Source: an uncultured Lachnospiraceae bacterium
GTDB taxonomy: Bacteria; Bacillota; Clostridia; Lachnospirales; Lachnospiraceae
Length of the DNA: 36,796 bases
Direction: 5' to 3'
Assembly: GCA_902773185.1 (NCBI GenBank)
Contig: CACYDN010000084.1
Location: 1-36,796, forward strand
Below the pieces are notes generated by a model. That model was not told the DNA's origin and did not search any database. It saw nothing but the letters and a program-made list of their open reading frames with translations. Of the stretch, positions 6,278-34,287 are shown one piece after another. A program made the position numbers and the translations under genes. Position 1 is the first letter of the stretch. The number at the start of each line of letters is the position of its first letter.

Positions 6278-6340
6278 AAAAACCTCAGTTTTCTATCCCC
6301 GGTAAACAAAAAATAGCAGATTTCTTATAACTTCTTCATA

Positions 6341-6376
6341 AGTATAATTGCAAAATCCGAATATATCAAGTATTCT
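6341..6376. promoter_or_regulatory. Overlapping divergent sigma70-type promoters
   Basis: Minus: TTGATA(6369-6364)-N17-TATACT(6346-6341). Plus: TTGCAA(6348-6353)-N17-TATTCT(6371-6376). Confidence 0.6.
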
Positions 6377-6410
6377 ATTATATGCAGATTCGTATAAAGG
6401 AGTATCCAAA

Positions 6411-8870
6411 ATGGCTTATCACATTGCTGTTGTCGATGATGATCAATTTAATACAATGGTGGCGGTCAATATTCTGACCAAAAACGACATGGAGGTGACT
6501 TCCCTCTCCTCCGGTCCGAAGCTTCTCAGCTACCTTCGGGAAGAGGTACCCGACCTGATCCTGCTGGACATCATGATGCCGGAAATGGACGGTTTTGAAA
6601 CCCTGGAAAACATCCGCCGTCTGGAAGAAGAAATGGACATGAAGGAAATCCCGGTCATCTTCCTGACCTCCGAGGATGATAACGAATCCGAAACCCGCGG
6701 TTTTGAAATGGGTGTCTGCGATTATATCCGCAAACCCTTTGAGCCCGCAGTTCTGATCAAACGGATCACCAACGTCCTGAAACGGCAGGAACTCATGTAC
6801 AAATTCTACGAGGAAGCTACCGTCGATAACCTGACGGGTCTTCTGAATAAGAGTGCGGTAACCAGCAAGCTGGAGATGCTCGTGCGGCGGAAGCCCGGTT
6901 ATCTCATGATGATCGACCTGGATGCCTTTAAGCTCGTAAACGATATCTACGGTCACAGTGCCGGCGATAAGATTCTGATCAGCTTTTCCATCCTGCTCTC
7001 CGGCTTCCTTGGTCCGGATGATATTGTCGGAAGAATCGGCGGCGATGAATTTGTAGCCTTCTCCGTTTTCCTGAAGGATGAGGCGGCGATCAGCGACTTC
7101 TCCACAAATCTGAACAGTGCACTTCTCTCCGATGCGAAACGCATTCTGGGTGAGGATATGGATATCCCGCTCGGTGTATCCATCGGCGCGATCTACCTTT
7201 CCGGCCAGGGTGAGGAATATCTCGAATCCCTGAACCTTGCGGACAAAGCACTGTATCATACCAAAAACAACGGTAAGCACGGCTATTCGATCCATCAGGA
7301 CAGTGCCGAGGATGATACCCCGGTCATGGATCTCAAAACGCTTTCCATGATCCTTTCCGAGCGGAATGAATCCTCATCCGCCCTGAAGCTGGACATGTCC
7401 TCCTTCGTCGGCGTATACCGTTACGTCATGCGTTACATTCTCCGGTACCATAAGAGTGCATGTAAAATTCTGGTTACCCTGTCACCTGCAGATGAAACGG
7501 ATCTTATGCCGGTGTCTTTGGACGATGAAGAATCCGAAAGCGTTTCCGTGCCCCATTCCACTTCCGCAGACGGCGGGACGGGCATAGATCTGTCAATTGA
7601 TGATCTGTATGACGCCTTCGGCGACCACGTCGGAAGCATCCTTCGGAAAAGCGACCTTCTGATGCAGGTCAGACGAAACAGCTACTTCATTATCCTGACG
7701 GATATCATCGCCGATGGTGTGGAACAGGTTGTCGGCAACATTCTCCGAAGCTGGCGGGAAAAATACGGCAACACACTCAAGGTTGATTTTGAAACGGAAT
7801 TCCTGGATACCGAAAAACCGAAGACCAGTGTCGATGACAGACTCTGGGTTGCCGTGGTTGACGATGATGCCATGAACCGCAAAATGGCCGAACGGATCCT
7901 GACGAAAAACGATCTGGATGTTACCACTCTCTCCTCCGGCGAGGAACTTCTCGAATTTGTGAAAACCAACCGTCCGGACCTCATCCTTCTGGATGTGAAT
8001 ATGCCCGGCATGGACGGCTTCGAAACGCTGACAAAGCTCCGCGCAGAGGAAACCGAAATCGCGGATATCCCCGTTGTCTTCCTCACCGCGGAAAATGATA
8101 TCAATACCGAAAAGAAGGCTCTTGCCCAGGGCGCAAAGGACTTCATCCGGAAGCCCTTCATCCCCGAAATTCTGACCATGCGCGTAAGGCAGATTGCCGA
8201 ACTCCTGCGTCTGCAGAAGCATCTTTCCGAAGAGGTTGCACGGAAGACCAAAGAGAACGAGCAGCTCTTCCTGAACGTCGTCAGCTCTCTGGCCGGCGCC
8301 ATCGATGCGAAGGATACCTATACCAACGGTCACTCCAGCCGTGTCGCTGAGTATTCCCGGGAGATTGCCCGCCGCTACGGCTGCACCATGAAGGAGCAGC
8401 GCGACATCTACATCATCGGCCTTCTGCATGACGTTGGCAAGATCGGGGTACCGGACTCTGTGATCAATAAGCCCGGCGCCCTTACCGATGAAGAGTTCGA
8501 ATATATCAAGCGCCATCCGGTCATCGGGTCCCAGATTCTGAAAAACATCAAGGAGATGCCGAAGCTTTCCATCGGCGCAAGGTGGCACCATGAACGGTAC
8601 GACGGAACCGGATATCCCGACGGCCTGGCCGGCGAAGAGATTCCCGAGGAAGCAAGGATTGTGGCCGTGGCAGATGCCTACGATGCCATGTCCAGCAACC
8701 GGAGCTACCGCCGGAGTATGCCGCAGGAAAAGATCCGGCGCGAGATTGAAAAGGGAATCGGCAAACAGTTTGACCCGCGTTTTGCGGAGATCATGCTCAA
8801 GATGATCGACGAGGATAAAGATTATACCATGCGGGAGATTTTTACCGGTTCCGACAATAAACAGGCATAA
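6411..8870 (+). CDS. REC-GGDEF-degenerate GGDEF-REC-HD-GYP bifunctional c-di-GMP enzyme
   Basis: Start moved to ATG 6411 (AAGGAG RBS). Two receivers (VVDDD..LLDIMMP; VVDDD..LLDVNMP), DNLTGLLN..RIGGDEF, degenerate domain LRKSDLLMQ, HDVGKIG..HHERYDGTGYP..DAYDAM. Confidence 0.93.
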   Translation: MAYHIAVVDDDQFNTMVAVNILTKNDMEVTSLSSGPKLLSYLREEVPDLILLDIMMPEMDGFETLENIRRLEEEMDMKEIPVIFLTSEDDNESETRGFEMGVCDYIRKPFEPAVLIKRITNVLKRQELMYKFYEEATVDNLTGLLNKSAVTSKLEMLVRRKPGYLMMIDLDAFKLVNDIYGHSAGDKILISFSILLSGFLGPDDIVGRIGGDEFVAFSVFLKDEAAISDFSTNLNSALLSDAKRILGEDMDIPLGVSIGAIYLSGQGEEYLESLNLADKALYHTKNNGKHGYSIHQDSAEDDTPVMDLKTLSMILSERNESSSALKLDMSSFVGVYRYVMRYILRYHKSACKILVTLSPADETDLMPVSLDDEESESVSVPHSTSADGGTGIDLSIDDLYDAFGDHVGSILRKSDLLMQVRRNSYFIILTDIIADGVEQVVGNILRSWREKYGNTLKVDFETEFLDTEKPKTSVDDRLWVAVVDDDAMNRKMAERILTKNDLDVTTLSSGEELLEFVKTNRPDLILLDVNMPGMDGFETLTKLRAEETEIADIPVVFLTAENDINTEKKALAQGAKDFIRKPFIPEILTMRVRQIAELLRLQKHLSEEVARKTKENEQLFLNVVSSLAGAIDAKDTYTNGHSSRVAEYSREIARRYGCTMKEQRDIYIIGLLHDVGKIGVPDSVINKPGALTDEEFEYIKRHPVIGSQILKNIKEMPKLSIGARWHHERYDGTGYPDGLAGEEIPEEARIVAVADAYDAMSSNRSYRRSMPQEKIRREIEKGIGKQFDPRFAEIMLKMIDEDKDYTMREIFTGSDNKQA

Positions 8871-8879: not shown

Positions 8880-9701
8880 ATGGATATGCTGCAGTTTTTC
8901 GGGCGGAATTCCGCCTTTTACCGGGAACAGAACAGCGCGTTCTTTATCGACGGAACGGACCTCGTGATGATGGACTGCGCCATGAGCGCCTTCCACAAAC
9001 TGGTTGCCATCATGAATCAGACAGATGATTCAGGCACAGTAACCGCTTCTGATATAAGCAGTTCTTCCGCCGACCGGGATGCGCTTCCGAATCCGGAAAC
9101 CATCAAACGAATCACGATTCTCGTGACACATACACACGGAGACCACATAGGCGGCATACCGATGCTGATCTTCTATGCCTACTATGTCTGGCATATACCC
9201 GTTACCGTGGCAGCCCCCTCCAAAGAGGTGGAGGATGACCTCCGGTATCTGATTGAACGGCTGGAGGGTTGCGAACCGGAAATGTTTACACTGACACTCG
9301 CCGAAAGCCTGAAATGGGTCCGGGCAGTCATTCCGACAGAGCATACGCCCACGCTTTCGGGCCGGTGCTTCGGCTACTCGCTTGCGCTTCCGGACGAAAC
9401 AGCGGTCTATACCGGCGATACCTGCACGCTGGAACCCTTCCTGCCGTATCTGGATGCGGACTTTGCAGAGCCGGTCGGGCACACGAATGCCTCCTCCGTT
9501 TCGGAAATCAGACAGGTAAGCCTGTATACCGAATCCGCAGTCTTTCGTTCGCCGGTACATCTCTGCATCGATGACATCCTGCCCACAATTACGGCCCTGA
9601 CCGAAAAGGGCGTCCGGGTATATCTGATGCATCTGGATAATGAGGAAGCCATCCTGGAAAAGATCAAAGAAACCCGGATCCGGCTGGCACCGCTTGTGTA
9701 A
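8880..9701 (+). CDS. MBL-fold metallohydrolase (Apyc1 / RNase Z / class II cNMP PDE-like)
   Basis: THTHGDHIGG, PTEH, YTGDT, PVHL, RVYLMHLD; N-terminal G.NSAF..NSA..DC pattern. Confidence 0.85.
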   Translation: MDMLQFFGRNSAFYREQNSAFFIDGTDLVMMDCAMSAFHKLVAIMNQTDDSGTVTASDISSSSADRDALPNPETIKRITILVTHTHGDHIGGIPMLIFYAYYVWHIPVTVAAPSKEVEDDLRYLIERLEGCEPEMFTLTLAESLKWVRAVIPTEHTPTLSGRCFGYSLALPDETAVYTGDTCTLEPFLPYLDADFAEPVGHTNASSVSEIRQVSLYTESAVFRSPVHLCIDDILPTITALTEKGVRVYLMHLDNEEAILEKIKETRIRLAPLV

Positions 9702-9748
9702 CGCAAAAAAGCAAATGCAATTGATTTAGATTCCAAGGGGGAAACAAC

Positions 9749-10756
9749 ATGAATGCTGAAAAAACCTTATCCGATATTTTTTCCGTATCCGATGAACTGT
9801 ACCGTACCATGAGCTGCGCCGCAGAAACAGACCACTCCTCGATTTTTATGCAACTGACCGAGCTGGGCCGGATCCTTACGGAATCCGATCGTGCCAGTTT
9901 CTGGAAATGGGACAAGCACTCCCATACGCTCTGGACCACAGCGGCTACCGGCACAGACCGGATCACCATCCCGGATACCACGGGACTTGTCGGAAAATCT
10001 CTTTCGCAGGGACGCGTGATCGTAACCAACGATCCGTATCATGACCCGGATTTCAACCAGGCCGTGGATAAGGCCACCGGCTATGTGACCCGCTCCATCC
10101 TGACCATGCCCGTTGCCAATATCAACGGCGAATATATCGGTGCCTATCAGGTGATCAACAAACTCGGCGGAGACGGAAAGTATGACGAAGCGGAGGACTG
10201 CCGCCGCCTGTCTCTTGCAGCCATGATCTGCGGTCTCGCCTTGGAATCCGATGTTTTCCTGGAGGAATCCCACACCGATAAACTGACCAAGCTCAGAAAC
10301 CGCATGGGCTTCTTCCACGATTTCGACCGGAAATACAACGCTGTGATCCGTGATCCGAAGCGGATGCTTTCCCTCTTCATCTGCGATATCGATAAATTCA
10401 AATCCGTAAACGATACCTACGGCCACAACGCCGGCGATGAGGTCCTGCAGCATGTGGCGGGTATCCTGACCGAAAACTGCCGGCCGGTGGACGGCATCTA
10501 CCGCTGGGGCGGTGAGGAGTTCATCATGATCATGACGGATATGGATATGGCCGGTGCTGCGGAAAAGGCAGAGGATATCCGGAAAAAGATCGAAGCGGCT
10601 GTCTGCGATACCTCCGAGGGCTTCTCCATCCGCCATACCATGAGTTTCGGCGTTACCGCCTTTGATCCGGAAAAAACAATTGAAGAGAATATCAGCACGG
10701 CGGATCAGAAGCTGTATACCGCCAAAGAAACAGGAAGAAACAGGGTGGTCGTCTGA
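9749..10756 (+). CDS. GAF-GGDEF diguanylate cyclase
   Basis: GAF (DPDFNQAVDKATGYVTRSILTMPV..QVINK); DKLTKLRNR, DIDKFKSVNDTYGH, RPVD I-site, RWGGEEF. Confidence 0.94.
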   Translation: MNAEKTLSDIFSVSDELYRTMSCAAETDHSSIFMQLTELGRILTESDRASFWKWDKHSHTLWTTAATGTDRITIPDTTGLVGKSLSQGRVIVTNDPYHDPDFNQAVDKATGYVTRSILTMPVANINGEYIGAYQVINKLGGDGKYDEAEDCRRLSLAAMICGLALESDVFLEESHTDKLTKLRNRMGFFHDFDRKYNAVIRDPKRMLSLFICDIDKFKSVNDTYGHNAGDEVLQHVAGILTENCRPVDGIYRWGGEEFIMIMTDMDMAGAAEKAEDIRKKIEAAVCDTSEGFSIRHTMSFGVTAFDPEKTIEENISTADQKLYTAKETGRNRVVV

Positions 10757-10780
10757 CCACCCTGTTCCATTCTGTTTCTT
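10725..10780. terminator. Putative bidirectional terminator hairpin between convergent operons
   Basis: 12-bp stem AACAGGGTGGTC-gtct-GACCACCCTGTT spanning the stop codon, extended by AAGAAACAGG/TCTGTTTCTT. Confidence 0.55.
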
Positions 10781-10797
10781 TCTTCAAAATCTCCCAC

Positions 10798-12627
10798 TCA
10801 GGAAGCTGACTTTTCAGTTTCTTCTTCTACCGTTCCCAGTACCTCGTAAACCATGACGCCGTTACTCTTTCCTTTGAGCGGAATCTGGCCGATCTCATTC
10901 ACCCGAATTCTGTCCTTTAATCTTTCATAAAGCACATCACTGATCAGAACCTGTCCCTTCTTCGCATTGGCCTCCAGTCTCGCGGAGGTATTGACCGTAT
11001 CTCCGATGGCCGTGAAGTCCATTCGGAAATCGCAGCCTACGTTTCCGACAACGGCAGGTCCGCAGTTCACACCCACACCGAAGCCAACGCTCCGGCCGTA
11101 TTTTTCAAAAAGCTTCTTCTCGAGTGCTTCTCCGCCCCGCACAATATCCAGTGCCGCAAGAACCGCCTTGTATTCGTAATCCGGAAGATCAAAGGGTGAA
11201 TTGAACACCGCCATAGTCGCATCACCGACGAACTTGTCCAGCGTACCGCTGTTATCGAAGATGGCCTTCGTGGTCAGGCTCAGGTACTCATTCAAAATCT
11301 CCACAACCGTTTCCGGCGGAAGCGCCTCGGACATCGTGGTAAACCCTCGGATATCCACGAAGAGCACAGCGATATCCCTGTTCTCACCGCCTAAGTTGAT
11401 TTCAAAATCGCCTGTTTTGGCAATTTCCTCCACAACCTGCGGCGCCACATATTTCTGGAACGCCTGGAGAATCTTTTTCTTTCTGGCCTGCTCGCCAAGA
11501 TAATGCACCGCAAGCACGTAGACAAACGATATAATAGCCACAATGGGCAAATATACCAGACTGAAGGCAGTTCCGTGTTCATTCAGGATTACACCAATGA
11601 ATCCGTTCAGACTGATAATGACCAGAAGCAGGATTACGCTCATCCAGACCTTCAGCTTACGGAACAAAAGATGCAGGAACATCGCGATGATTGCGATAAT
11701 AATCCCGTAGAGGTACGGATTTCCTTTTACGGCAAATCGGCCGTCCTGATAAGACTGCAGGATATTGGCATGAACCTCCACCCCGTACATCTGGCTGCTG
11801 CCGCCGTTCGGCACCTTGAAATTATCCTGTAAGCCCGTTGCATAGGCACCGACCAAAACAATACTGCCGGCAAAGGTCCGGGGATCGATTCTGCCTTCCA
11901 GAACATCCACCAGAGAAACGCACTCATAATCACCCGGCTTACCGGAATAGTTGATCAGTGTCCGTCCGGTCTTATCGGTCGGAATTCCCTCCGGCGTAAT
12001 TCCCTTCTTCTCGCAATACATCTCATAGATGACACGCGAAAACATGGAAACCTCTTCCCCATCCACTGTTTCCGACGGGAGGATACGGCGCACCGTACCA
12101 TCCGAATCCTGTGCCACGTTGTCGTAGCCCATCCTTACGTTTTCCGCGAGCTCCGGATACGGCATCGAGATTCCGATTGCCGACCGGGACATGACGCCGT
12201 CTGCCTTCCGGGAGGCATGTTCTTCATACAACAGATGGCTTACCACAACCACATTGCCGCTTTCCTTTGCGGTCTCCGCCAGATCCAGGTCCCCATTCTC
12301 GGATGCATCGACATTTTCATCCTCAAAGTGACCGGTGAAGAGAATATCGAAGCCGATCACGGTCGGTTTCATCTGTTCATCCTGATTGAGAAGCCGGATC
12401 AGATCGGCGTAACGGCTCCGGGACCATGTCTGAACCGGTCCGTAAGCCGCAAGCGTCTTTTCATCGATTCCGATGATCTTGATCCGGGCGCTGATGCCTC
12501 TCGGCTGCTGATACAGCTTATCCGTCGCCAGATGGTCGATCGTGAGAAACGCCCCCGACACCGACAGGATAAACACCAGAAAGCCCACCAGAAGTGTTTC
12601 CAACAAAATACGAATTTTCTTTTTCAT
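10798..12627 (-). CDS. CHASE2-domain class III adenylate cyclase (CHASE2 + 3 TM + cyclase)
   Basis: CHASE2 motifs IGIDEKT, WSRSRYA, IGFDILF, DSDGTVRR, IVLVGA, MYGVEVHAN; cyclase FVDIRGFT, LDKFVGD, DFTAIGDTVNTSARLE; AGGAG RBS. Confidence 0.95.
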   Translation of the reverse strand: MKKKIRILLETLLVGFLVFILSVSGAFLTIDHLATDKLYQQPRGISARIKIIGIDEKTLAAYGPVQTWSRSRYADLIRLLNQDEQMKPTVIGFDILFTGHFEDENVDASENGDLDLAETAKESGNVVVVSHLLYEEHASRKADGVMSRSAIGISMPYPELAENVRMGYDNVAQDSDGTVRRILPSETVDGEEVSMFSRVIYEMYCEKKGITPEGIPTDKTGRTLINYSGKPGDYECVSLVDVLEGRIDPRTFAGSIVLVGAYATGLQDNFKVPNGGSSQMYGVEVHANILQSYQDGRFAVKGNPYLYGIIIAIIAMFLHLLFRKLKVWMSVILLLVIISLNGFIGVILNEHGTAFSLVYLPIVAIISFVYVLAVHYLGEQARKKKILQAFQKYVAPQVVEEIAKTGDFEINLGGENRDIAVLFVDIRGFTTMSEALPPETVVEILNEYLSLTTKAIFDNSGTLDKFVGDATMAVFNSPFDLPDYEYKAVLAALDIVRGGEALEKKLFEKYGRSVGFGVGVNCGPAVVGNVGCDFRMDFTAIGDTVNTSARLEANAKKGQVLISDVLYERLKDRIRVNEIGQIPLKGKSNGVMVYEVLGTVEEETEKSAS

Positions 12628-12672
12628 GGTACTCCTACGTAAGAAGTTAGTATTTGAAACGAAAGCACCGGG

Positions 12673-15600
12673 TTACTTTACTGAATGGAAGGTATGCTTG
12701 CCCTTTTCATCCAGGTACACAGAGCTGCCGCCCTGATATACAGTCGGATCCGAGTCCACGGACCATTCCCCTTCACCCAGGATATACTCCGTTTCCGGTT
12801 CCAACGGAACCGACACACCATCGGGGATGACCTTGTCCTTCAGCCAGAGCGCGCTGAGGGTGATCGTAATCTCCCGCGTGTTTCCGGCTTCATCCGTTGC
12901 AACGATCACAAAATCCATTGCCCCGTTTTCGGGATCCAGAAGAATCGTCGCCACGCCATCCTTAACCTCAACAGGCGTTTTATTCACAATAACTGATGCC
13001 AGCTTATCATCGGTGATCACGAGCTCCAGATTATCCCGGAAGAACACGGTAACCGTATTCACATCCACATCGTTTGCGGCAATATCCGGTATATCCATAT
13101 CAATCTTCAGCTTGCCGGGCAGCGGAATGGCACCGGTCAGAGCGCCGTCTGTCCGACGGAGATAGATCTGTTCAATATCCTCGCTGTATGGAATGAAACT
13201 GCTGTAGATCACACCATCCCGGGAAATGGAGAATCCCTCAGGTGCTTCAATATTTACTTTGGTCGTATAATAACCGTTGTCGCCGGTGGTTCCCCTCATA
13301 ACATAGGCAACCGACGGTCTTTCCAGATAGGAAAGGGTAAAGTCATCCCGGCAGGAAACCGCTTCATAATTATCCGTCTGCGGAATGATTGCCAGGACCG
13401 TATAGTCGCCGGCCGCTATTGGCCATGCATCCGTAAAGCTATCATCCGGTGCGGATAACGATTTATAATAATACTCGATGCCCTCTATGCCATCGGACAC
13501 CGTTTCCAGAGTCGGTGCATATTCCGGAAGTCCCGATATGCCATCGGCCATCTTGATGGATGCCTCTGCACTCCTCCGGCTGATGGTGAAGCTGCTCGAA
13601 GCATAGGCCGCCTCAAATGCAAAGGTTTCGGGAACGCTGATAAATACCACATAGGTTCCGACCGTTGTGGGCGCCTCTGTCGAATAGGAAATGTCATCTG
13701 CTCCGGATGCCTTGTACAGAATGGTTACCTGCTCCGCATCCGAATTCGTTGTATACTGCGGTTTCACCTCATCCCATACAAAACAGTCCGCCACGCTGAT
13801 GCTGGCCTTTGCGGCATTCTTGCTGATGGTAAAGGAGGTTGTTGCCGTAACCGCTTCGTAAGTAAAGGTTTCGGGCACCTTCGCAACAACATTGTAGGTT
13901 CCGGCTGCCGTGGGAACTTCTGTGGTATAGTTACTGTCATCCGAACCCGCCGGCTTATAATAGATTGTAGCCGTACCATTCGAGTTCGTGGAGAAATCCG
14001 GTGCAATGGGTTCTCCTACCAACGCATCTGCCACGCGGATGCTGGCCGTAGCCTCTCTCCTGCTGATGGTAAAGGTTGTTTCTGCCTTGGCCAATTCGTA
14101 GCCGTCTGTTTCCGCTATCTTAACCAGCGCCTTGTATTTTCCTGCCGCAGTGGGCTCTTCTCCGGAATAACTGCTGTCATCCGCATCCGCCGGTTTATAC
14201 AGGTATTCCGGTGTTCCGTCGGAATCCGTCTTGAGATCCGGTTTGATCGGATCGTTTACAAAAATATCATCGATGGAAAGAGACACCGTCGGAACATCCT
14301 TCAGATAATCCAGATGGAACATCAGATCCGTGGTTCTGCCCGACAGATCATAGGCCGTGATCGTACACTTTTTGGACGTTCCCTTTTCCGCCGTGAAATC
14401 CACATCTGCTGTCCAGACACCGCCGTTTTCTTTCACACCGCCGTTTTCACGGGAATAGGATTTGCCCGGTGTGACGATACTATCCAGGTTTTCATCCTTG
14501 ATGCTGATGACCACATTCTTTGCCGTAATCTGATCCTCGTCGGCGATAGATGCCGCTTTGCCGTCCACCTTGGTCCCGCTGATCACGGGATCGGCCTCGT
14601 CAAAGACCAGATCCAAAATCGGTGCACAGAGCTCTGCTGCCGAATAAAAGTCTGTTTCCGCGTCATCGCTCCGCTTCAGGCGGAAGGTCAGATCATCGTT
14701 ATAGTTTCCGTCCAGCTCAGAGGGGAAAACGTCCTCTTTTGTCAGAATAACAGAGGACTGCCACTCCTCTTCTCCGCCACGGAGCACAAGATATCCCTCC
14801 GCAGGGGTAAGGGTAATGCTGTCCTTTGCATAGACCTCATTCTCGACACCGGACAGGGTAAAATAGCTCGATCCCCAGGCCGTGTCACATTCATCAAGCG
14901 GCAGATAGTCGATGGAGAATATCGTATCCGGTACATAACCGCTCTTATACGGATACTGTGCGGGAACATACGCATGGAACTGATAGGTTCCCGCCTCTGT
15001 CGGTGCCGCCTCCTCAAAGACAGCGTCGCCCATAAGAGGTGCATATTCCATTTGATAATCCGGCACGCCCGGATAGTCGGAGGGATACGAAATGTAATCC
15101 GTCAGATCATATTCCTGTCCCACATAGATCTGCCCCGGTTCGCTGACCGTAAATGTCGGTTCATAGCCGATCAGCTCAATGGCATAATCATCCTGGCTGG
15201 CCACAACAAGGTCAGAAAGATCTTCACCGATTTCCAGCGTAAAGCCGCCGCCATCAATGGAAACCCAGGTGTCCGGCTCTGCAATGACCGTTCCGATATT
15301 TTCGGAATTATATCCCGTAATCTCAATCCCGGTCACGGGTTTGTACACAGCAGATGACGTATTCTGAACATGCGTCGTCAGCCGGATCCGATCGGCTGAA
15401 ATGGTTCCGTTATTCGTAATGGAACCGTTTTCAAACTCGGAGCTGTCCGTGGCAAACACCTTGCCGCTCGTCTCACCATACCGAAGCACACTGTTGTTGG
15501 TTATTTTTGCATGCTCCTGCAGATCAAAGGTGTTCACGGAGCATTCACCGTCATTGATAAATTCTATATTTGCATAGATTGCAAAAGTTCCGGTTACCGT

Positions 15601-16125
15601 CAGCTTGCTGCCGCTTTCATTATAAAACTTCCCGCCATAACTGGGGTCGGTAAGATTCACCGTGTTCATTGTTCCGTAATTATAGAAAGTCCGTGCAGAG
15701 CCTCCGCCGTCAGACATCACAATGCTTTCGGCCTCTATGGTACCATGATTCACAACAAGCGCTTCCACGGAATTTACGGTTAAATATCCTCCATCATTAA
15801 TCTGAATACTACAGTTATATGCGGTTTCAATCGTTGCATTTCCAAGATTCACATTACCTGAGATAATCAGATTATGGCCCACTGAATGAGAATCCCGCGC
15901 TACTTTAATATACGTGATTTCCGAAAGCGCGCAGGTGTAGCCGGCATCATCCGTAACCGTTTCCGAACCGGTCAGTGTGAGGTCATAATCCAAAGTCAGC
16001 TGATATCTTCCTTCCGGAACTTCCCCCGCCGCTTTGACCGGCGGCAGATAGATGAGTCCCATCGCCATGACGAGGGTAAGCCCCAGACTGATCATTCTGT
16101 TTTTCAAAGAGATTTTATTCTTCAT
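12673..16125 (-). CDS. Large secreted protein: beta-helix-like N-region, MBG-like repeats, Ig-like domains
   Basis: Start at ATG 16125 (AAGGAG RBS); signal peptide ending PVKA; N.G.I repeats; five P..(A/V)G.Y motifs; D...P / A.D..G Ig-like motifs; no LPxTG, SLH or C-terminal TM. Confidence 0.85.
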   Translation of the reverse strand: MKNKISLKNRMISLGLTLVMAMGLIYLPPVKAAGEVPEGRYQLTLDYDLTLTGSETVTDDAGYTCALSEITYIKVARDSHSVGHNLIISGNVNLGNATIETAYNCSIQINDGGYLTVNSVEALVVNHGTIEAESIVMSDGGGSARTFYNYGTMNTVNLTDPSYGGKFYNESGSKLTVTGTFAIYANIEFINDGECSVNTFDLQEHAKITNNSVLRYGETSGKVFATDSSEFENGSITNNGTISADRIRLTTHVQNTSSAVYKPVTGIEITGYNSENIGTVIAEPDTWVSIDGGGFTLEIGEDLSDLVVASQDDYAIELIGYEPTFTVSEPGQIYVGQEYDLTDYISYPSDYPGVPDYQMEYAPLMGDAVFEEAAPTEAGTYQFHAYVPAQYPYKSGYVPDTIFSIDYLPLDECDTAWGSSYFTLSGVENEVYAKDSITLTPAEGYLVLRGGEEEWQSSVILTKEDVFPSELDGNYNDDLTFRLKRSDDAETDFYSAAELCAPILDLVFDEADPVISGTKVDGKAASIADEDQITAKNVVISIKDENLDSIVTPGKSYSRENGGVKENGGVWTADVDFTAEKGTSKKCTITAYDLSGRTTDLMFHLDYLKDVPTVSLSIDDIFVNDPIKPDLKTDSDGTPEYLYKPADADDSSYSGEEPTAAGKYKALVKIAETDGYELAKAETTFTISRREATASIRVADALVGEPIAPDFSTNSNGTATIYYKPAGSDDSNYTTEVPTAAGTYNVVAKVPETFTYEAVTATTSFTISKNAAKASISVADCFVWDEVKPQYTTNSDAEQVTILYKASGADDISYSTEAPTTVGTYVVFISVPETFAFEAAYASSSFTISRRSAEASIKMADGISGLPEYAPTLETVSDGIEGIEYYYKSLSAPDDSFTDAWPIAAGDYTVLAIIPQTDNYEAVSCRDDFTLSYLERPSVAYVMRGTTGDNGYYTTKVNIEAPEGFSISRDGVIYSSFIPYSEDIEQIYLRRTDGALTGAIPLPGKLKIDMDIPDIAANDVDVNTVTVFFRDNLELVITDDKLASVIVNKTPVEVKDGVATILLDPENGAMDFVIVATDEAGNTREITITLSALWLKDKVIPDGVSVPLEPETEYILGEGEWSVDSDPTVYQGGSSVYLDEKGKHTFHSVK
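13327..14301 (-). repeat. Four tandem ~80-aa (about 240-bp) MBG-like domain repeats
   Basis: PTAAGKY, PTAAGTY, PTTVGTY, PIAAGDY units each ending FT(I/L)S; CTGATGGT.AAG recurs at about 240-bp spacing. Confidence 0.8.
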
Positions 16126-16142
16126 AGCCCATCTCTCCTTTT

Positions 16143-17063
16143 TTACTTCCATTCTACCGTTATATCCTTTGTAACCGGTTCGTTAAAGTTATAGTTCCAG
16201 TCACCGGAGGCAGCGGGATTCAGTGTAGGCCTTACAGCCTTTTCTCCCTTCTTCACAGACTGCGTTGCAAATACCGTTTTGTTATACTCAAAAGTTACCG
16301 TGTAAGGTCCGTTCAGGATCACTTCAATCTCCGGATTGGAGATGGAGGTGTCCCGTCCGGTATCATTCTTCTTCTGAATGATACGAAGAATACGTTCCGG
16401 CAGCGAATTATAATCGATCGGCTTAGGCTTCTGGAAATAATATGTGGTCTCTGTATTCCGGGTGATAATGACCTCCTGGCCGGCCGGAACCGGTACTACG
16501 GTTACTTCCCTGGAACCATCCTCATAGATCAGGACAGAATCCATGACACCCTCGAAGGTTACGGCTCTCGTCTTTCCCTTCTCGTCGTTCGGATCATAGA
16601 AGACGTAAATAATGGTTCCGCGGATCGACATCGATGCATTCGGTGTATTGATCTCGTAGGTCGATTCATCCGAAAGCTTATTCTGTACATCACAGGTGAT
16701 ACCGCCGTTTTCCAGTTCAATCTTCGTCCGGCTGTCCTTCTTTGTTCCGGATGCCACAAGCTCGATCACCGTTCCCTCATCCAGATAAATATACTTATCG
16801 TCATCCGCCAGAATGGTCAGAGAACCGTTCGTGAGCGTAACCTTATCACCCGACTCCAGAACCATGTTGGAATAGGGTGTGATACTCCCCACTTCCTTAC
16901 GTTCCACAATTCCCTCTCCCGAAAACTCGTAGATTTTCAGAAGCCGGTAATCATCCTTCTTCTTGTGCATAAAAAGAAACGCGATAACAGCGCCCGAAAT
17001 GATTACCACCGCTGCCGCGATCCCGATAATGATCAGTTTTTTACTGACCTTTTTTTCTTCCAT
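16143..17063 (-). CDS. Membrane-anchored FecR-domain protein with C-terminal InlB-B/Flg_new-like repeat
   Basis: N-terminal TM after a ~9-aa tail; LESGDKV..YLDEGT..YEINTPNASMSIRGT; C-terminal YTVTF..QSVKKGEKA.RP....W..NFNEPVTKDITV. Confidence 0.85.
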   Translation of the reverse strand: MEEKKVSKKLIIIGIAAAVVIISGAVIAFLFMHKKKDDYRLLKIYEFSGEGIVERKEVGSITPYSNMVLESGDKVTLTNGSLTILADDDKYIYLDEGTVIELVASGTKKDSRTKIELENGGITCDVQNKLSDESTYEINTPNASMSIRGTIIYVFYDPNDEKGKTRAVTFEGVMDSVLIYEDGSREVTVVPVPAGQEVIITRNTETTYYFQKPKPIDYNSLPERILRIIQKKNDTGRDTSISNPEIEVILNGPYTVTFEYNKTVFATQSVKKGEKAVRPTLNPAASGDWNYNFNEPVTKDITVEWK

Positions 17064-17303: not shown

Positions 17304-17356
17304 AAATTTCTGATCATGTTTGGCTATCATCCTTCATTTTGATAAAGGAGTTTTCT

Positions 17357-17641
17357 ATGTCCGGTATCATCCGTAAACACATCACCTTCTATGGCCGCGT
17401 ACAGGGCGTCGGTTTCCGCTGGCACGCCCGCCACGCCGCAGACTCCCTCCGTCTCACAGGCTGGGTAAGAAATGAATATGACGGCTCCGTTACCATGGAA
17501 ATCCAGGGTGAGGAAGCCGCCATTGATATGCTTCTGCAAAACCTCGGCAGTGACCGCTATATCGATATCCGGCATATGGATATCCGAACCATCCCCGTGG
17601 AGGAAGGCGAACGGTCATTCCGCGTGAAGCACGATTATTGA
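17357..17641 (+). CDS. acyP: Acylphosphatase
   Basis: GRVQGVGFR and GWVRN..DGSV signatures; AAAGGAG RBS before ATG 17357; 3' end overlaps the convergent gene by 7 bp. Confidence 0.95.
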   Translation: MSGIIRKHITFYGRVQGVGFRWHARHAADSLRLTGWVRNEYDGSVTMEIQGEEAAIDMLLQNLGSDRYIDIRHMDIRTIPVEEGERSFRVKHDY

Positions 17642-19548
17642 TACATTTCAAGGAAAGACATCAGCATTTTGGAAATCTGCGCGCGCGTTGCCTTTCCGTT
17701 CATACCGAGCCTATATACCGTATTCCCTGAGCCATCCTTTTCCTCAATTCCGGATATAATGCCGGCGCCCACGGCCCATTTCATGTAGGGCAGGGACCAG
17801 TGCGGTTTTGCTTTTCCTTCCTTGAGAGAACTGTAATCCGTAAATCCGGAAAGGTCTCCCTGCTGCGACACATCCCAGCCCTTCATCTCCGCATACCGCT
17901 TCAGGATCGTTACCGCCTCGGCGCGTGTCAGTTCTTTTTTTCTTCCAAAGGTACCATCCGCATATCCATCCACCAAATGCTGCTGGTTGGCCCAAACGAC
18001 GGGATCATAGTAGAACGGCTTTGTTCCGTTCCTGTTTATTTTTACATCCGTAAAAGGTGACAAACCGGACACGTCCGGCGAACCGGCCATCCTGTAAAGA
18101 ATCGTGACAAATTCGGCGCGACTAATGGTAGCATTCGGCCGTACCGTGGTCAGACCATCGCCGTCCTTATCTTCATCCCCTGAAATAATACCGGTTTCAT
18201 AAGCAAAACGTATCGGTTCATACTGCCAGTACTCGTCTCCGTTATTCTTGTAACGGGGCAGATCCGTAAAGGGCAGATAGCCGGCATATGTCGGATGCGG
18301 GCTGTTATAGTGGATCGTCACTGCCCCCGAAAGATCCAGCGTGCCCACATTGCTTATTCTGTTCCACATTCCCTTGGAACCTGCATAATAAATATCGGTA
18401 ATGTTTCCGCCAAACCATGTTCCTTCGGCAAATTCCGTCACCGATGTGGGAATATATACAGTGGTCAGATTGTCCGAACCGTAAAATGCACGCTTTGTTA
18501 CAGAGGTAACGGTTTCCGGCAGCCGGACAGAGGTGGTCCAGTCATTGTAGAACATCAGATAGTTTCCCGCACCGAACTTTGTCAGCGTCTTCCCTCTGAC
18601 AGTTTCCGGCACGATCAGTTCCTCATCAAAGCCGCAATACTGCCAGACACCGGTTGTTTCCTCATCTATATTGGAGACATACCATCCTCCGGGCAGCTCA
18701 TAAACGGAACTTCCACGCGGCTTTGTGGTGTAGCCGTAGCCGGCCTCGCCAATATAATAGGTATCTCCGATCTTCGCGATGGCGTCCCGGTGACCGGAAC
18801 CACTGCTCTGATTCTGATAATCAATATTAATCCGTGCATCGATTCCCGCCATTTTGGAAAGCTCTACGATCAAATTGGTACTGGCCCAGCAGTCACCACC
18901 CTCAAAGAGGAGCATATCCTGCCAGCTCTGATAGCGGTAATTGTAAACGGTATTGTCTCCTACCCACTTCGTAAATGCTCTGAACTTTTCCAGATCATCC
19001 GTTTTCCCTGCCGTACATTCTTCAAAAATTGTCTGAATTCTGTTATTGACATACTGATTGCCGAGCTCGATCACGGTAACCGGGATATCATGGGTATAAT
19101 CCCCGCAGGTCACACGGACCAGTGCGGCACCCGGATAATACTGGGTTTCGATTCTGTCATAGCCATCGATCGGCGCAGTAGAGCCAAAACCTCCCTTCCA
19201 ATACCAGACCGTTTTCCGCGGCTCCACAAGCCCGGTTGCCGAGACCGTTACATTGCTTCCGGACACGATCCGGTAGGACGGCGTCCCTTCGAGCCCTTCG
19301 GTACTGATCTGGAAGCTCTGCGGCTTTTCGGCGGGAACCTCGCCGAGTACCTCTGCCGCCTCTTCCGTTACACAGTATATCTCTACTTCATCCGGATTTT
19401 TCTTTTCATCGGCCTTTCCGGTAATTCCGAAACCTAATAAAATAAACCAGACAAGAACTACGGTGCAAAGGATTTTCGCTGTGAATCTACTTATATTTTT
19501 TACTTTGCTCATTCCATGCAGTCTGTTTTCCCCTCTCATACTGCTCAT
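17635..19548 (-). CDS. SLH-anchored surface protein: Ig-like, transglutaminase-like, BspA-type LRR, three SLH domains
   Basis: Start ATG 19548 (AAGGAGG RBS); signal peptide; GGDCW..GHRDA..YYIGE; LPETVTSVTKRAFYG; SLH motifs ISRAEF, LTRAEA, ATRAQI. Confidence 0.88.
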   Translation of the reverse strand: MSSMRGENRLHGMSKVKNISRFTAKILCTVVLVWFILLGFGITGKADEKKNPDEVEIYCVTEEAAEVLGEVPAEKPQSFQISTEGLEGTPSYRIVSGSNVTVSATGLVEPRKTVWYWKGGFGSTAPIDGYDRIETQYYPGAALVRVTCGDYTHDIPVTVIELGNQYVNNRIQTIFEECTAGKTDDLEKFRAFTKWVGDNTVYNYRYQSWQDMLLFEGGDCWASTNLIVELSKMAGIDARINIDYQNQSSGSGHRDAIAKIGDTYYIGEAGYGYTTKPRGSSVYELPGGWYVSNIDEETTGVWQYCGFDEELIVPETVRGKTLTKFGAGNYLMFYNDWTTSVRLPETVTSVTKRAFYGSDNLTTVYIPTSVTEFAEGTWFGGNITDIYYAGSKGMWNRISNVGTLDLSGAVTIHYNSPHPTYAGYLPFTDLPRYKNNGDEYWQYEPIRFAYETGIISGDEDKDGDGLTTVRPNATISRAEFVTILYRMAGSPDVSGLSPFTDVKINRNGTKPFYYDPVVWANQQHLVDGYADGTFGRKKELTRAEAVTILKRYAEMKGWDVSQQGDLSGFTDYSSLKEGKAKPHWSLPYMKWAVGAGIISGIEEKDGSGNTVYRLGMNGKATRAQISKMLMSFLEMYQ

Positions 19549-19576
19549 GGCACCCCCTCCTTTCTCCTTCCTTCTG

Positions 19577-19605
19577 ATTGTAGCAAATTGCGCGGCTTGC
19601 GGCAA
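19577..19605 (-). promoter_or_regulatory. sigma70 promoter of the SLH gene
   Basis: TTGCCG-N17-TACAAT with extended -10 TG. Confidence 0.6.
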
Positions 19606-24125: not shown

Positions 24126-25787
24126 TTAATACTCGGAATGATCGTATCCCTCATAATAACCGAGAGGATCTGTCAGACTTCCGTTCTTAACCACACAGAA
24201 GTGCAGATGCGGTGCTGTGGCATAACCGGTTTCTCCGGCAAAACCGATAACATCGCCGGCTTTTACCTTCTGGCCTTCCACACAGTTGAAGGAGTCCATA
24301 TGATAATAGCGGGTTACGATACCGTTACCGTGATCGATCAGAACCGCATTGCCTGCAGTCTCCCAGTAAGGCGTGCCATCCGGATATACTCCGATTACCG
24401 TACCGTTTCCGGCCGCTACGATCGGTGTGCCGGTCGGGCACATGATATCTACGCCACTGTGGCCGTCTCCGAACTCCCAGCCGACTTCCTTGGAATAGGG
24501 CATGGGCCACTGGGTCAGACCATCCTTGCTCAGTACCTTAACGTTTACAATTTTATTTTTGTCCAGGTCGTTGATATTAACGGAAATAACCGAACCGTTC
24601 TGTCCGTCTGCGGAAATACAGCTGGTGGAACGATATGACGTTATGCCCTGATATGCGGCAGACGGTGCCGCGGTGCCCTTCGCCTGGATTACGATCTGAA
24701 TAGCTTCCAACCGCTTTGCCAGCCCGCTGGTACCGGCCATTTCGCCGTTCTTTGCCCAGGCCAGCCAGCCGTAGGTCTCGGTCCGCACCCGGTAATATAC
24801 ATCAAATTCATCCGCAATCGCACCGGTCAGTTCGATATAAATTGCTTCCAGACGCTTTGCCTTTCCGCTGGTACCGGCCATTTCTCCGTTGCTTACCCAA
24901 TCCATCCAACCGTAGGTCTGCGCATGCACCTTGTAGGTGATCCCGCCGTTTGTTCCGTCGGGAAGAGCGATACGGATTGCCTCCAGACGTTTTCCGTCAC
25001 CGTCGGTACCGGAAACTTCGCCCGCATTCCGCCAGTCCTGCCAGCCGTAGGTCTGTACATGGGTCTGATACGTAACGTTCGGTGCCTGCTTCTGAGGTTC
25101 CGGATTAACCGGTTCCGGGTTTACAGGTTCCGGATTTACCGGTTCCGGTTCAACGTACGGTTCTTCTTCTCCACCTTCGTAGATGCCGTTCGAACCATCC
25201 AACGCCGAATAGAATTTATCTGTCCAGGACGTGATTCCGCCCAGGTCTTCTGCCGGTGCCTGTCCCTTCGGAAGGATCACGATCTGGATACCTTCCAGAC
25301 GCTTTGCTTTTCCGCTGGTACCGGCGCAGTTTCCGTTCTTTGTCCATGCCATCCAGCCGTAGGTCTGGGCATGCACACGGTAGTATACATCATAAAGAGA
25401 TGCTTTCGGACCTGTCAAGCGGATCTGAATAGCCTCGAGCCGCTTGGCTTTTCCTTCTGTTCCGGACTTTTCATCATCACTTACCCAGTCCAGCCAGCCG
25501 TAGGTCTGGCAATGGGTTCTGTAGGTCACGCCCAGTCCTTCCACACCGGAAATACTGATCTGAATGGATTCCAGACGCTTTGCCTTTCCGCTGGTACCGG
25601 CCATTTCTCCGTTGCTCACATAATCCTGCCAGCCATAGGTCTGTACATGTGTTCTGTAAGATACCGTCGGTGTTTCCGCCGCCTGTACCTTCCCGGCGCT
25701 CACGGGAATGAGTACCAGGATCATCGCCAATGTTAATAGAAAACTGAAAACACTGCCTGCTTTTCGTTTTTCTCTTTTGAACAGCAT
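24126..25787 (-). CDS. Secreted ChW-repeat (x6) M23 family peptidase
   Basis: Signal peptide; six Y..H.QTYGW..W....E..GT.G...RLE.I type repeats; PEPVN linker; M23 motifs HSGVD, YYHM, PHLHF. Confidence 0.92.
   Translation of the reverse strand: MLFKREKRKAGSVFSFLLTLAMILVLIPVSAGKVQAAETPTVSYRTHVQTYGWQDYVSNGEMAGTSGKAKRLESIQISISGVEGLGVTYRTHCQTYGWLDWVSDDEKSGTEGKAKRLEAIQIRLTGPKASLYDVYYRVHAQTYGWMAWTKNGNCAGTSGKAKRLEGIQIVILPKGQAPAEDLGGITSWTDKFYSALDGSNGIYEGGEEEPYVEPEPVNPEPVNPEPVNPEPQKQAPNVTYQTHVQTYGWQDWRNAGEVSGTDGDGKRLEAIRIALPDGTNGGITYKVHAQTYGWMDWVSNGEMAGTSGKAKRLEAIYIELTGAIADEFDVYYRVRTETYGWLAWAKNGEMAGTSGLAKRLEAIQIVIQAKGTAAPSAAYQGITSYRSTSCISADGQNGSVISVNINDLDKNKIVNVKVLSKDGLTQWPMPYSKEVGWEFGDGHSGVDIMCPTGTPIVAAGNGTVIGVYPDGTPYWETAGNAVLIDHGNGIVTRYYHMDSFNCVEGQKVKAGDVIGFAGETGYATAPHLHFCVVKNGSLTDPLGYYEGYDHSEY
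25096..25150 (-). repeat. 15-bp tandem repeat encoding (PEPVN)n linker
   Basis: EPEPVNPEPVNPEPVNPEP between the two ChW triplets. Confidence 0.85.
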
Positions 25788-25801
25788 AATCAAATCCTTT
25801 C

Positions 25802-29726: not shown

Positions 29727-29785
29727 TCGTTTTTTTCTCCTTTTTCTCCTAAGCAATGTACCTAAGTATTTATGGCATGCTGTTT

Positions 29786-31024: not shown

Positions 31025-31481
31025 AAAGCTGCCATCTCCTCAGTCTGTCGGTGCAGCAACGCACCTCTTTTGTTACGGTAACCGTATCGTCCGAAATCAA
31101 ATGCACCCTTCCCAGTGAGATTACCTTTGCTGCTTCCTCTTCCACGGAAACCTCAGCCCTGCCGGGAATTTCTCCGCTTCGTGCACCATCCGCCAGAAGC
31201 TTGTTTTCCAGTTCCGCTCCCAACATTTTCTCCTCCTCAGCGGACAGGGTTAAGGTATAGATATGCCGAATAGCTGCCAGTTGCAGAGCATCCCGCCGGA
31301 AAAACTGCAAAAGAAGTGCCAGAACAAAAAAGCAGCACGACAAAAGGACCGGAACGATCACACAGGCTTCGATTGTCATAAAGCCTTTGTTTGACATTCT
31401 TGAAACCCGCTCTGCTGCGTCTCCTGTTTCCGCTTTTCCCTGAATTCTTCCGTTATTTCCGATTACCTGCATTTGGAACAT
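31002..31481 (-). CDS. TadE-like pseudopilin
   Basis: KG|FMTIEACVIVPVLL prepilin-type motif and hydrophobic helix; start uncertain (31481, 31472 or later). Confidence 0.75.
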   Translation of the reverse strand: MFQMQVIGNNGRIQGKAETGDAAERVSRMSNKGFMTIEACVIVPVLLSCCFFVLALLLQFFRRDALQLAAIRHIYTLTLSAEEEKMLGAELENKLLADGARSGEIPGRAEVSVEEEAAKVISLGRVHLISDDTVTVTKEVRCCTDRLRRWQLYDDITER

Positions 31482-32263: not shown

Positions 32264-32265
32264 CT

Positions 32266-33831: not shown

Positions 33832-33842
33832 TATGCCACACC

Positions 33843-34154: not shown

Positions 34155-34287
34155 ACAACTTTTCTCCTTTCTCCGGAGCCGGCCGTTCATGTCCGGTTTA
34201 GCGATTCCGAAATATCCTGACCGAATTCCCGTCTAAATACCATTGGTACATCGATCCGTTTATTAGGCAACCGCCGCACCGGTCGCG

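What the first reader, a model, noticed from the sequence alone, without database searches (positions are those of the whole stretch)
8880..17063. Candidate surface-signal -> cAMP -> c-di-GMP relay with its own cNMP eraser
Seen: two convergent operons meet at 10756/10798. One encodes a FecR-domain protein, a secreted MBG/Ig protein and an intact CHASE2 class III cyclase; the other ends with an MBL hydrolase and a GAF-GGDEF cyclase. Known: PDE-type GAFs with an NK..F..DE motif can bind cyclic nucleotides (mammalian PDE2/5, Anabaena CyaB1); Leptospira Lcd1 is a cAMP-activated GAF-GGDEF; Apyc1-family MBLs hydrolyse 3',5'-cNMPs. Inference: writer, reader/converter and eraser of a cAMP signal are clustered, forming a second-messenger conversion circuit. 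I know of no described example in Clostridia.
Basis: partly seen in the sequence, partly recalled or inferred. Interest (0 to 1): 0.85.

Follow-up and report, generated by a model that had tools for sequence, protein, structure and literature searches.

The report
Clostridial cAMP-to-c-di-GMP converter cassette
Lachnospiraceae and related Clostridia keep a membrane cyclase, a nucleotide-degrading enzyme and a sensor-linked c-di-GMP synthase together in one conserved gene block, which likely turns a surface signal into cAMP and then into c-di-GMP, a link known from single proteins in other bacteria but untested in this group.

Summary
Of 36 congeners, 25 carry the GAF-GGDEF; 24 of these have the CHASE2 cyclase, and 21 hold the two within 1 kb in two layouts. 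Eleven lack both. The MBL is fused to GAF-GGDEF in 8 of 25. The cyclase is the only class III cyclase found in this genome and has ATP-type motifs. The GAF keeps four of five CyaB2 cAMP contacts.

Across the family the cassette is modular. Among 52 CHASE2-cyclase loci, a candidate reader (GAF-HD-GYP, GAF-GGDEF or a true cNMP-binding protein) sits beside 41, and a candidate eraser (YhfI-like MBL or endonuclease-IV-like TIM barrel, never both) beside 38.

The MBL is Apyc1-like but fails Apyc1 membership tests. No biochemistry was possible, and the input through FecR and the surface protein is inferred only.

The kind is known: a Campylobacterota cluster, Lcd1, GacB, Tlr0485. This scan noted related cassettes on other DNA, including the TIM barrel. 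Verdict: a new variant of a known kind, well supported.

The parts
16143..17063 (-). Membrane-anchored FecR-domain protein: one N-terminal TM helix, FecR domain, weak C-terminal Listeria-Bacteroides repeat. Likely input adaptor.
   Evidence: Pfam FecR E 1.4e-9; TM 10-28; Flg_new E 5.6e-4, below cut-off; a FecR protein lies within 8 kb of 41 of 52 family CHASE2 cyclases
12673..16125 (-). Large exported protein with about 80-aa MBG-type repeats and a conserved C-terminal cap of about 55 aa. Likely surface receptor or spacer. The ORF runs to 16152; the likely start is 16125.
   Evidence: MBG_3 26.5 bits, cut-off 25; five repeat motifs; C-terminal cap shared by homologues whose lengths vary from a few hundred to over 3000 aa; RBS before 16125
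10798..12627 (-). CHASE2 class III nucleotidyl cyclase: TM, CHASE2, 3 TM, cyclase. Predicted adenylate cyclase.
   Evidence: Pfam; four TM segments and motif positions D425, K465, D469, T539, N546, R550; best solved match P. aeruginosa CyaB 3R5G, E 2.4e-32, with the same motifs; only PF00211 hit in the genome
10737..10768 (.). Hairpin at the junction of the convergent units; candidate bidirectional terminator
   Evidence: 12 and 14 pair stems on the two strands; not enriched by count, function untested
9749..10756 (+). GAF-GGDEF protein with a cNMP-type GAF and an intact GGEEF site. Predicted cAMP reader and c-di-GMP synthase.
   Evidence: The GAF profile's 20 solved matches are PmGH, CyaB2, mammalian PDE GAFs and 5W10; pocket and catalytic residues nearly invariant in 96 homologues; model pLDDT 90.4
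8880..9701 (+). Metallo-beta-lactamase-fold hydrolase, Apyc1-like. Predicted cNMP phosphodiesterase.
   Evidence: H84, H86, D88, H89, H155, D180, H227, H251 invariant in 101 homologues; model closest to 7FCT (Z 26.6), then three Apyc1 structures (Z 21.3-22.4)
6411..8870 (+). REC-GGDEF-X-REC-HD-GYP gene ending 9 nt upstream of the MBL. Probably co-transcribed here but not a conserved part of the cassette.
   Evidence: Pfam; full-length relative in 1 of 67 related loci

Best explanation
The block encodes a CHASE2 membrane cyclase predicted to make cAMP, a GAF-GGDEF protein that likely binds this cAMP and changes (probably raises) its c-di-GMP synthesis, and an Apyc1-like hydrolase that likely destroys the cAMP, with the FecR protein and the large exported protein likely feeding a surface signal to the cyclase. 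Inferred, with my odds: cyclase makes cAMP (0.9); GAF binds a 3',5'-cNMP (0.85); binding activates rather than inhibits the cyclase domain (0.7); MBL hydrolyses the cNMP (0.75); FecR and the surface protein control the cyclase (0.5). No cNMP-binding (CRP-type) protein was found in this genome, so c-di-GMP is probably the main output of cAMP here.
For: Genus: 24 of 25 GAF-GGDEF carriers have the cyclase, 21 within 1 kb (7 convergent, 14 co-oriented), and 11 of 36 lack both. MBL-GAF-GGDEF is one ORF in 8 of 25.
Other lineage: in a class-wide draw, 7 of 7 close MBL orthologues outside the family are MBL-GAF-GGDEF fusions directly after a CHASE2 cyclase. Two such cyclases fall in a different part of the cyclase tree from the window's (quick tree, SH-aLRT only).
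Family: all 12 genomes with this GAF-GGDEF type (E<1e-38) have a class III cyclase, against 56 of 300 overall. In 6 of the 12 the GAF-GGDEF sits beside a non-CHASE2 cyclase.
Reader slot: true cNMP_binding proteins take the GAF protein's place (cNMP-GGDEF L027, cNMP-SpoIIE, cNMP-DUF2225).
Eraser slot: filled by a YhfI-like MBL (17) or an endonuclease-IV-like TIM barrel (21), never both, in 38 of 52 loci.
GAF residues: R48, S50, D107 and T110 match CyaB2 R291, T293, D356 and N359 (PMC4411481).
Precedents: Lcd1, Tlr0485 (PMC8846402) and GacB (10.1101/600031).
Against: No activity, binding or expression was shown.
The CyaB2 adenine-stacking I308 is Ala or Ser in 92 of 96 homologues; I308A lowers cAMP affinity in CyaB2.
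The closest solved GAF is PmGH (Z 23.0, rmsd 1.8, 160 aligned), whose ligand is unidentified.
The Apyc1 catalytic E74 is not kept, and the Pfam Apyc1 cut-off is not reached.
The MBL follows GAF-GGDEF, not the cyclase, when the block splits (G001, G007), and it was not found in G015 and G033.
Only 1 of 15 more distant MBL relatives has a cyclase within 1.5 kb; two with E about 1e-72 lie in genomes with no cyclase found.
G011 has the fusion but no CHASE2 cyclase was found.
8 of 52 family cyclase loci have neither reader nor eraser nearby.
The GAF of the family's GAF-HD-GYP readers is another subtype lacking the Arg (0 of 33).
The S. meliloti FecR gene smc02177 was not needed for signal perception (PMC5498481).
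Slot counts use queries picked from these same neighbourhoods, and kin are not independent.
Confidence: 0.65

Rival explanations
1. The cAMP-to-c-di-GMP relay holds, but the MBL serves the c-di-GMP side (pGpG or c-di-GMP hydrolysis) or another phosphoester, not cAMP.
For: The MBL is fused to GAF-GGDEF in 8 of 25 congeners and stays with it when the block splits. It lacks Apyc1 E74. RNase Z, PhnP-family and PqqB folds score within about 2 Z units of Apyc1. Relatives occur without any cyclase.
Against: The eraser slot is also filled beside cNMP-SpoIIE and cNMP-DUF2225 readers whose own output is not c-di-GMP, and a TIM-barrel relative is fused to a cyclase (L176). A distant relative of this MBL follows a CHASE2 cyclase directly (L221; Apyc1 Pfam 48.9 bits, cut-off 50). 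The nearest characterised folds are Apyc1 enzymes.
Confidence: 0.15
2. The messenger is cGMP, or both cGMP and cAMP, or the cNMP inhibits the diguanylate cyclase.
For: The I308 position is Ala/Ser, and in CyaB2 that change lowers cAMP but not cGMP affinity. cGMP-binding PDE5 GAFs are close matches. S. meliloti CHASE2 cyclases are called AC/GCs. In kin the commonest reader is GAF-HD-GYP (30 of 52 loci), which would lower c-di-GMP.
Against: The cyclase has Lys465 and Thr539, as in CyaB; 72 of 74 relatives have Lys and 72 of 74 Thr. R48 matches the adenine-N1 Arg of CyaB2. The two GAF-GGDEF precedents read about (Lcd1, GacB) are cAMP-activated.
Confidence: 0.12
3. The genes are clustered signalling neighbours that were inherited together; the GAF is a dimerisation or other-ligand domain and the two units work independently.
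For: The closest solved GAF (PmGH) has no known ligand. The genome has at least 15 GGDEF and 6 HD-GYP genes. Congeners share ancestry.
Against: Linkage survives an inversion, recurs with a second cyclase clade and with a non-CHASE2 cyclase. Phyletic match is 12 of 12 against a 19% base rate. R48 is kept in all 19 out-of-genus GAF-GGDEF loci checked.
Confidence: 0.06
4. It is a Pycsar-like anti-phage system with its own off-switch.
For: The cyclase hits PADLOC PycC models (best E 4.5e-27), the MBL resembles Apyc1, and a related cassette in kin includes a TIR protein.
Against: Purine-type Lys/Thr motifs and CyaB as best match; a receptor-like CHASE2 architecture; no PADLOC hit for the other four proteins; a GGDEF output; long conservation within the genus.
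Confidence: 0.02

Closest known systems
Campylobacterota CHASE2 adenylate cyclase / cAMP phosphodiesterase / FecR-domain / TPR gene cluster (PMC9239204, section 9 read in full; figures and Table S6 not seen)
   Same: CHASE2 cyclase, a cAMP-degrading enzyme and a FecR-domain protein clustered, inferred there too to be one pathway
   Different: No GAF-GGDEF reader is named in that text. There the FecR protein is an outer-membrane protein with a TPR partner; here it is a single-pass membrane protein beside an MBG-repeat protein, in a family recalled as monoderm.
Leptospira Lcd1 and Myxococcus GacB, cAMP-activated GAF-GGDEF enzymes (PMC8846402 passages; 10.1101/600031 passages)
   Same: GAF-GGDEF architecture; the GAF profile hits 5W10 at E 1.6e-10 (that 5W10 is the Lcd1 GAF is recalled)
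   Different: No cyclase-and-eraser cluster is described for them in the passages read. GacB is a Hypr enzyme that makes cGAMP, whereas this GGDEF keeps the Asp (D230, 96 of 96) recalled as specifying c-di-GMP.
Thermosynechococcus Tlr0485 (cAMP-activated GAF-HD-GYP) and Bdellovibrio Bd1971 (cNMP-EAL) (PMC8846402 passages)
   Same: A cNMP sensor wired to a c-di-GMP enzyme; GAF-HD-GYP is the usual reader in this cassette's relatives
   Different: They degrade c-di-GMP; the window's reader would make it.
Apyc1 and B. subtilis YhfI MBL phosphodiesterases (PMC9117128 and PMC11724313, passages)
   Same: MBL fold with HxHxDH; bacterial Apyc1 is proposed to regulate cNMP signalling and is 'occasionally' adjacent to a cyclase
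   Different: About 20% identity, E74 not kept, Pfam cut-off not reached. The paper saw no obvious effector near those cyclases (its Fig. S8 not seen), whereas here the effector is adjacent or fused.
Sinorhizobium meliloti NsrA-CyaK/CyaD1/CyaD2-Clr cascade (PMC7529298, PMC13001267, PMC5498481, passages)
   Same: CHASE2 cyclases activated through a surface receptor; a FecR-domain gene (smc02177) is in the pathway's regulon
   Different: Output is a CRP-family regulator and input is a beta-barrel; neither was found here.

Membership tests
Class III adenylate cyclase | Two metal-binding Asp, adenine-specifying Lys and Asp/Thr, transition-state Asn and Arg (roles recalled) | tested here: met
   D425, D469, K465, T539, N546, R550, aligned with CyaB 3R5G
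Class III adenylate cyclase | Makes cAMP from ATP | not testable with these tools
   Needs an assay
cNMP-binding (PDE/CyaB-type) GAF | NKFDE motif | tested here: inconclusive
   N137 95/96, K138 96/96, F or Y145 96/96, D150 96/96; terminal Glu absent, as it also is at that position in PmGH
cNMP-binding (PDE/CyaB-type) GAF | CyaB2 polar cAMP contacts R291, T293, D356, N359 | tested here: met
   R48 95/96, S50 95/96, D107 96/96, T110 96/96; two identical, two conservative; mapped by counting on the alignment with residues from PMC4411481
cNMP-binding (PDE/CyaB-type) GAF | Hydrophobic adenine contact I308 | tested here: not met
   A65: Ala 56, Ser 36, Thr 3, Val 1 of 96
cNMP-binding (PDE/CyaB-type) GAF | Binds cAMP or cGMP | not testable with these tools
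   Needs ITC or thermal shift
Active diguanylate cyclase | GG(D/E)EF with metal and guanine-binding residues | tested here: met
   D213, K218, N221, H226, D230, G254-G255-E256-E257-F258 invariant in 96; RxxD I-site present in the window (R245, D248) but variable in kin
Apyc1 family | MBL fold with HxHxDH and metal ligands | tested here: met
Apyc1 family | Catalytic E74 | tested here: not met
   The Apyc1 Glu-Glu pair aligns to P94-M95; column 94 is P/A/G/S in 99 of 101 and column 95 M/L/T in 101 of 101
Apyc1 family | Catalytic Y112 and the nucleotide-binding loop | tested here: inconclusive
   That region aligns with gaps; an aromatic residue is kept at 136 in 100 of 101, equivalence not shown
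Apyc1 family | Pfam PF23023 curated cut-off | tested here: not met
   No PF23023.1 hit for the window protein; precomputed PF23023.2 is listed for it and its homologues without scores
Apyc1 family | Hydrolyses 3',5'-cNMPs | not testable with these tools
   Needs an assay
Campylobacterota CHASE2-cyclase cluster | CHASE2 cyclase with a FecR-domain protein | tested here: met
Campylobacterota CHASE2-cyclase cluster | cAMP phosphodiesterase gene | tested here: inconclusive
   A candidate MBL is present; the paper's text does not name the PDE family
Campylobacterota CHASE2-cyclase cluster | TPR protein and outer-membrane location of the FecR protein | tested here: not met
   No TPR hit among the block's proteins; the FecR protein has one TM helix
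Pycsar | Pyrimidine cyclase plus a cNMP-gated TIR or TM effector | tested here: not met
   Purine-type motifs; no cNMP_binding gene found in the genome; no PADLOC effector hit

The most novel reading that the evidence does not exclude
Clostridia that lack CRP use a plug-and-play cAMP cassette in which one cyclase slot, one reader slot and one eraser slot are filled by unrelated genes. The TIM-barrel protein that replaces the MBL in kin is an undescribed class of cyclic-nucleotide phosphodiesterase, and FecR plus an MBG-repeat protein form a monoderm surface receptor for CHASE2.
Probability: 0.4. Interest if true: 0.75.

Novelty: new variant of a known kind. Interest (0 to 1): 0.55.

Why it matters
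I recall cAMP signalling in Clostridia as poorly charted, and none of the ten paper searches returned a description of such a cassette in this group. The block supplies a complete small test system: writer, reader and eraser are soluble or have soluble domains, and cultured strains carry it (L066, L049, L092). It offers a cellular role for chromosomal Apyc1-like enzymes, which has been proposed but lacked a named effector. It gives a candidate input for CHASE2 cyclases outside diderms. By slot exchange it points to a TIM-barrel family as a candidate new cNMP phosphodiesterase. If true, 19% of sampled Lachnospiraceae genera (56 of 300) have a class III cyclase, and in many it would be wired to c-di-GMP rather than to transcription.

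Tried and rejected
- Protein Atlas look-up of the large protein's C-terminus: not available.
- Expression: three RNA or presumed-RNA runs held only scattered short near-identical contigs, which cannot show transcription, strand or an operon. Not used.
- Rfam found nothing in the window. The promoter scan gave consensus matches only.
- Identity of the closest structure, 7FCT 'MBLBt2': no relevant paper found, so its substrate is unknown to me.
- The review PMC2801740 on GAF ligand residues was not held; PMC4411481 was used instead.
- The whole-protein fold search was dominated by the GGDEF domain; the GAF was placed by sequence profile and by one row (PmGH).
- The careful tree did not finish; only the quick tree (74 rows, a chosen subset of genus loci) was read, and no clade test was run.
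- Fisher tests overstate because kin are related; they are not used as evidence.
- Rejected: the upstream REC-GGDEF-REC-HD-GYP gene as a core part; the convergent layout as meaningful (7 of 21); Apyc1 membership; Pycsar.
- Control loci: of 6 non-CHASE2 cyclase loci from congeners, one had a cNMP-binding neighbour and none showed this GAF or MBL; too few to count.

Full report
Observation. The plus-strand unit is REC-GGDEF-X-REC-HD-GYP, MBL, GAF-GGDEF; the minus-strand unit is FecR, a large exported protein, CHASE2 cyclase. They meet at a hairpin. The closest cyclase relatives lie mostly in records titled Lachnospiraceae or Eubacterium. In the window's genome (2.4 Mb, 90.6% complete) this block holds the only class III cyclase and the only PDE-type GAF, MBL of this family and FecR protein found. 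No cNMP_binding domain was found (the control rang in 10 of 14 genomes).

The parts. The cyclase has four TM segments and all six canonical residues, with Lys465 and Thr539 as in P. aeruginosa CyaB. The GAF profile matches 20 solved sequences: PmGH, CyaB2, mammalian PDE GAFs and 5W10. Of five cAMP contacts listed for CyaB2 GAF-b (PMC4411481, passages), two are identical (R48, D107), two are conservative (S50, T110) and one is lost (I308 is Ala or Ser in 92 of 96). The NKFDE motif lacks its last Glu. The GGDEF site is intact in 96 of 96 homologues. The MBL keeps its His/Asp metal-site residues in 101 of 101. Its model (pLDDT 90.4) is closest to 7FCT (Z 26.6, rmsd 2.1, 220 aligned) and then to three Apyc1 structures (Z 21.3-22.4, rmsd 2.7), with ZipD, YhfI and RNase Z at about 20.5. 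It lacks Apyc1's catalytic E74 (PMC9117128, passages) and misses the Pfam cut-off, so it may work like Apyc1 but is not filed as a member.

Linkage in the genus. Among 36 congeners, 25 have the GAF-GGDEF and 23 the MBL. 24 of the 25 have the CHASE2 cyclase (two as fragments at contig ends), and the 11 without GAF-GGDEF also lack it; several of those 11 are incomplete assemblies. The two genes lie within 1 kb in 21 genomes, 7 convergent and 14 co-oriented. Three have them on different contigs (G036 at two contig ends; G001 and G007 truly apart), and one (G011) has no CHASE2 cyclase found. MBL and GAF-GGDEF form one ORF in 8 of 25. None of 24 genomes of other families matched the GAF-GGDEF at E 1e-30. 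The upstream response-regulator gene has a full-length relative in 1 of 67 related loci.

Beyond the genus. In a draw of 350 family genomes, 51 have a CHASE2 cyclase. Within 8 kb of the 52 loci I found a FecR protein in 41, a candidate reader in 41 (GAF-HD-GYP 30, cNMP-SpoIIE 4, GAF-GGDEF 3, cNMP-DUF2225 3, other GAF 1), a candidate eraser in 38 (TIM barrel 21, second MBL type 17, never both), both in 35 and neither in 8. These queries came from the same neighbourhoods, so I sought out-of-sample tests.

(a) The TIM family (E<1e-85) occurs in 31 of 350 genomes. Six lack a CHASE2 cyclase; in 4 of those 6 it sits beside a different class III cyclase, and the other two have one elsewhere. A weaker relative is fused to a cyclase (L176). 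It is related to endonuclease IV and keeps His/Asp/Glu residues that I recall as its metal site.

(b) All 12 family genomes with this GAF-GGDEF type have a class III cyclase, against 56 of 300 overall. Six of the 12 have it beside a non-CHASE2 cyclase, with a TIR gene between. A thirteenth, weaker GAF-HD-GYP hit (G127) had no cyclase found.

(c) In 399 scored class-wide genomes, the 7 close MBL orthologues outside the family, all from one genus, are MBL-GAF-GGDEF fusions right after a CHASE2 cyclase. Five genomes reached through loci gave the same fusion, 4 of them beside a cyclase (one repeats a genome of the seven). Two of these cyclases group with the GAF-HD-GYP/second-MBL type, away from the window's (quick tree). 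The second MBL type is closest to B. subtilis YhfI, reported to prefer cAMP/cGMP.

Results against. Only 1 of 15 more distant MBL relatives has a cyclase within 1.5 kb, and two lie in genomes with none found. The MBL follows the GAF-GGDEF when the block splits, which keeps a c-di-GMP-side substrate open. The closest solved GAF, PmGH, has no identified ligand (10.1101/2021.11.05.467447, passages). The GAF-HD-GYP readers use another GAF subtype. The input is the weakest step: no binding test could be run, and S. meliloti's FecR gene smc02177 was not needed for signal perception (PMC5498481, passages). RNA data were uninformative.

Mechanism. Most likely a surface cue acting through the MBG-repeat protein and the anchored FecR protein switches the CHASE2 cyclase (inferred, 0.5). 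cAMP then binds the GAF and changes, probably raises, c-di-GMP synthesis, and the MBL ends the signal. I put the writer-reader-eraser core at 0.65.

Comparison with what is known. A CHASE2 cyclase, cAMP PDE, FecR and TPR cluster is described in Campylobacterota (PMC9239204, section 9 read whole). cAMP-activated GAF-GGDEF and GAF-HD-GYP enzymes are known: Lcd1 and Tlr0485 (PMC8846402, passages) and GacB (10.1101/600031, passages). Chromosomal Apyc1 is occasionally beside a cyclase (PMC11724313, passages). CHASE2 cyclases take surface signals through NsrA in S. meliloti (PMC13001267 and PMC7529298, passages). Ten searches of the open-access library returned no description of the full cassette in Clostridia, of an MBL-GAF-GGDEF fusion, or of the TIM barrel as a cNMP phosphodiesterase, though none of them named the TIM barrel as a term. 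Subscription papers, figures and supplements were not seen and may bear on this. Earlier notes of this scan report related cassettes in other genomes, including the TIM barrel; none matched this GAF-GGDEF by sequence.

Verdict. A real, conserved cassette whose interpretation survives the genomic tests. It is a new variant of a known kind; interest 0.55.

Noticed in passing
L063:6589-7365, L112:10877-13171, L165:7980-9761, L176:7990-9843: An endonuclease-IV-like TIM-barrel family (AP_endonuc_2) replaces the MBL beside cyclases and is fused to GAF-HD-GYP, to GAF-GGDEF and to a cyclase; all 27 carriers in the 300-genome draw have a class III cyclase. Candidate cNMP phosphodiesterase; this scan noted it before (e1-5145240).
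   Followed up: yes
L162-L165, L222, L224, L225: A second cassette in family members: GAF-GGDEF (often after the TIM barrel), a TIR_2 protein, then a soluble class III cyclase, with an N-terminal REC domain in two of the four scanned. The role of the TIR protein is unexplained.
   Followed up: partly
   Followed up: partly
L169-L171, L173: Three tandem FecR-domain paralogues precede the cyclase and the MBL-GAF-GGDEF fusion; these genomes also carry a second CHASE2 cyclase with FecR and the large protein but no reader nearby.
   Followed up: partly
window 12676-12840 (minus strand): The large protein's last 55 or so residues form a conserved cap (W..IIP..Y.LG.G.W.V.GD.TVY.G..YV) kept while the rest varies widely in length; no Pfam hit for the cap. 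A candidate docking site for FecR or CHASE2.
   Followed up: partly
window 26952-36392 (minus strand): A Tad/Flp pilus-type region (T2SSF x2, Flp1-like, DUF5702, TadE, DUF6382-FHA) and a TQ-domain adhesin lie 10-19 kb from the cassette; a possible c-di-GMP target, linkage not checked.
   Followed up: no
window 3707-8870; L174:3981-10167: A dCache hybrid histidine kinase diverges from the REC-GGDEF-X-REC-HD-GYP gene; relatives of both lie within about 7 kb of the MBL-GAF-GGDEF fusion in G011. The middle domain X has no Pfam hit.
   Followed up: partly
L102:11053-12089: GAF and GGDEF lie in two overlapping frames beside the cyclase in G251, suggesting a frameshift or assembly error.
   Followed up: no
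window 17339-19605 and 24126-25793: An acylphosphatase, an SLH-anchored transglutaminase-like/LRR protein and a ChW-repeat M23 peptidase; the first two had no relative at E 1e-10 in 67 related loci.
   Followed up: no
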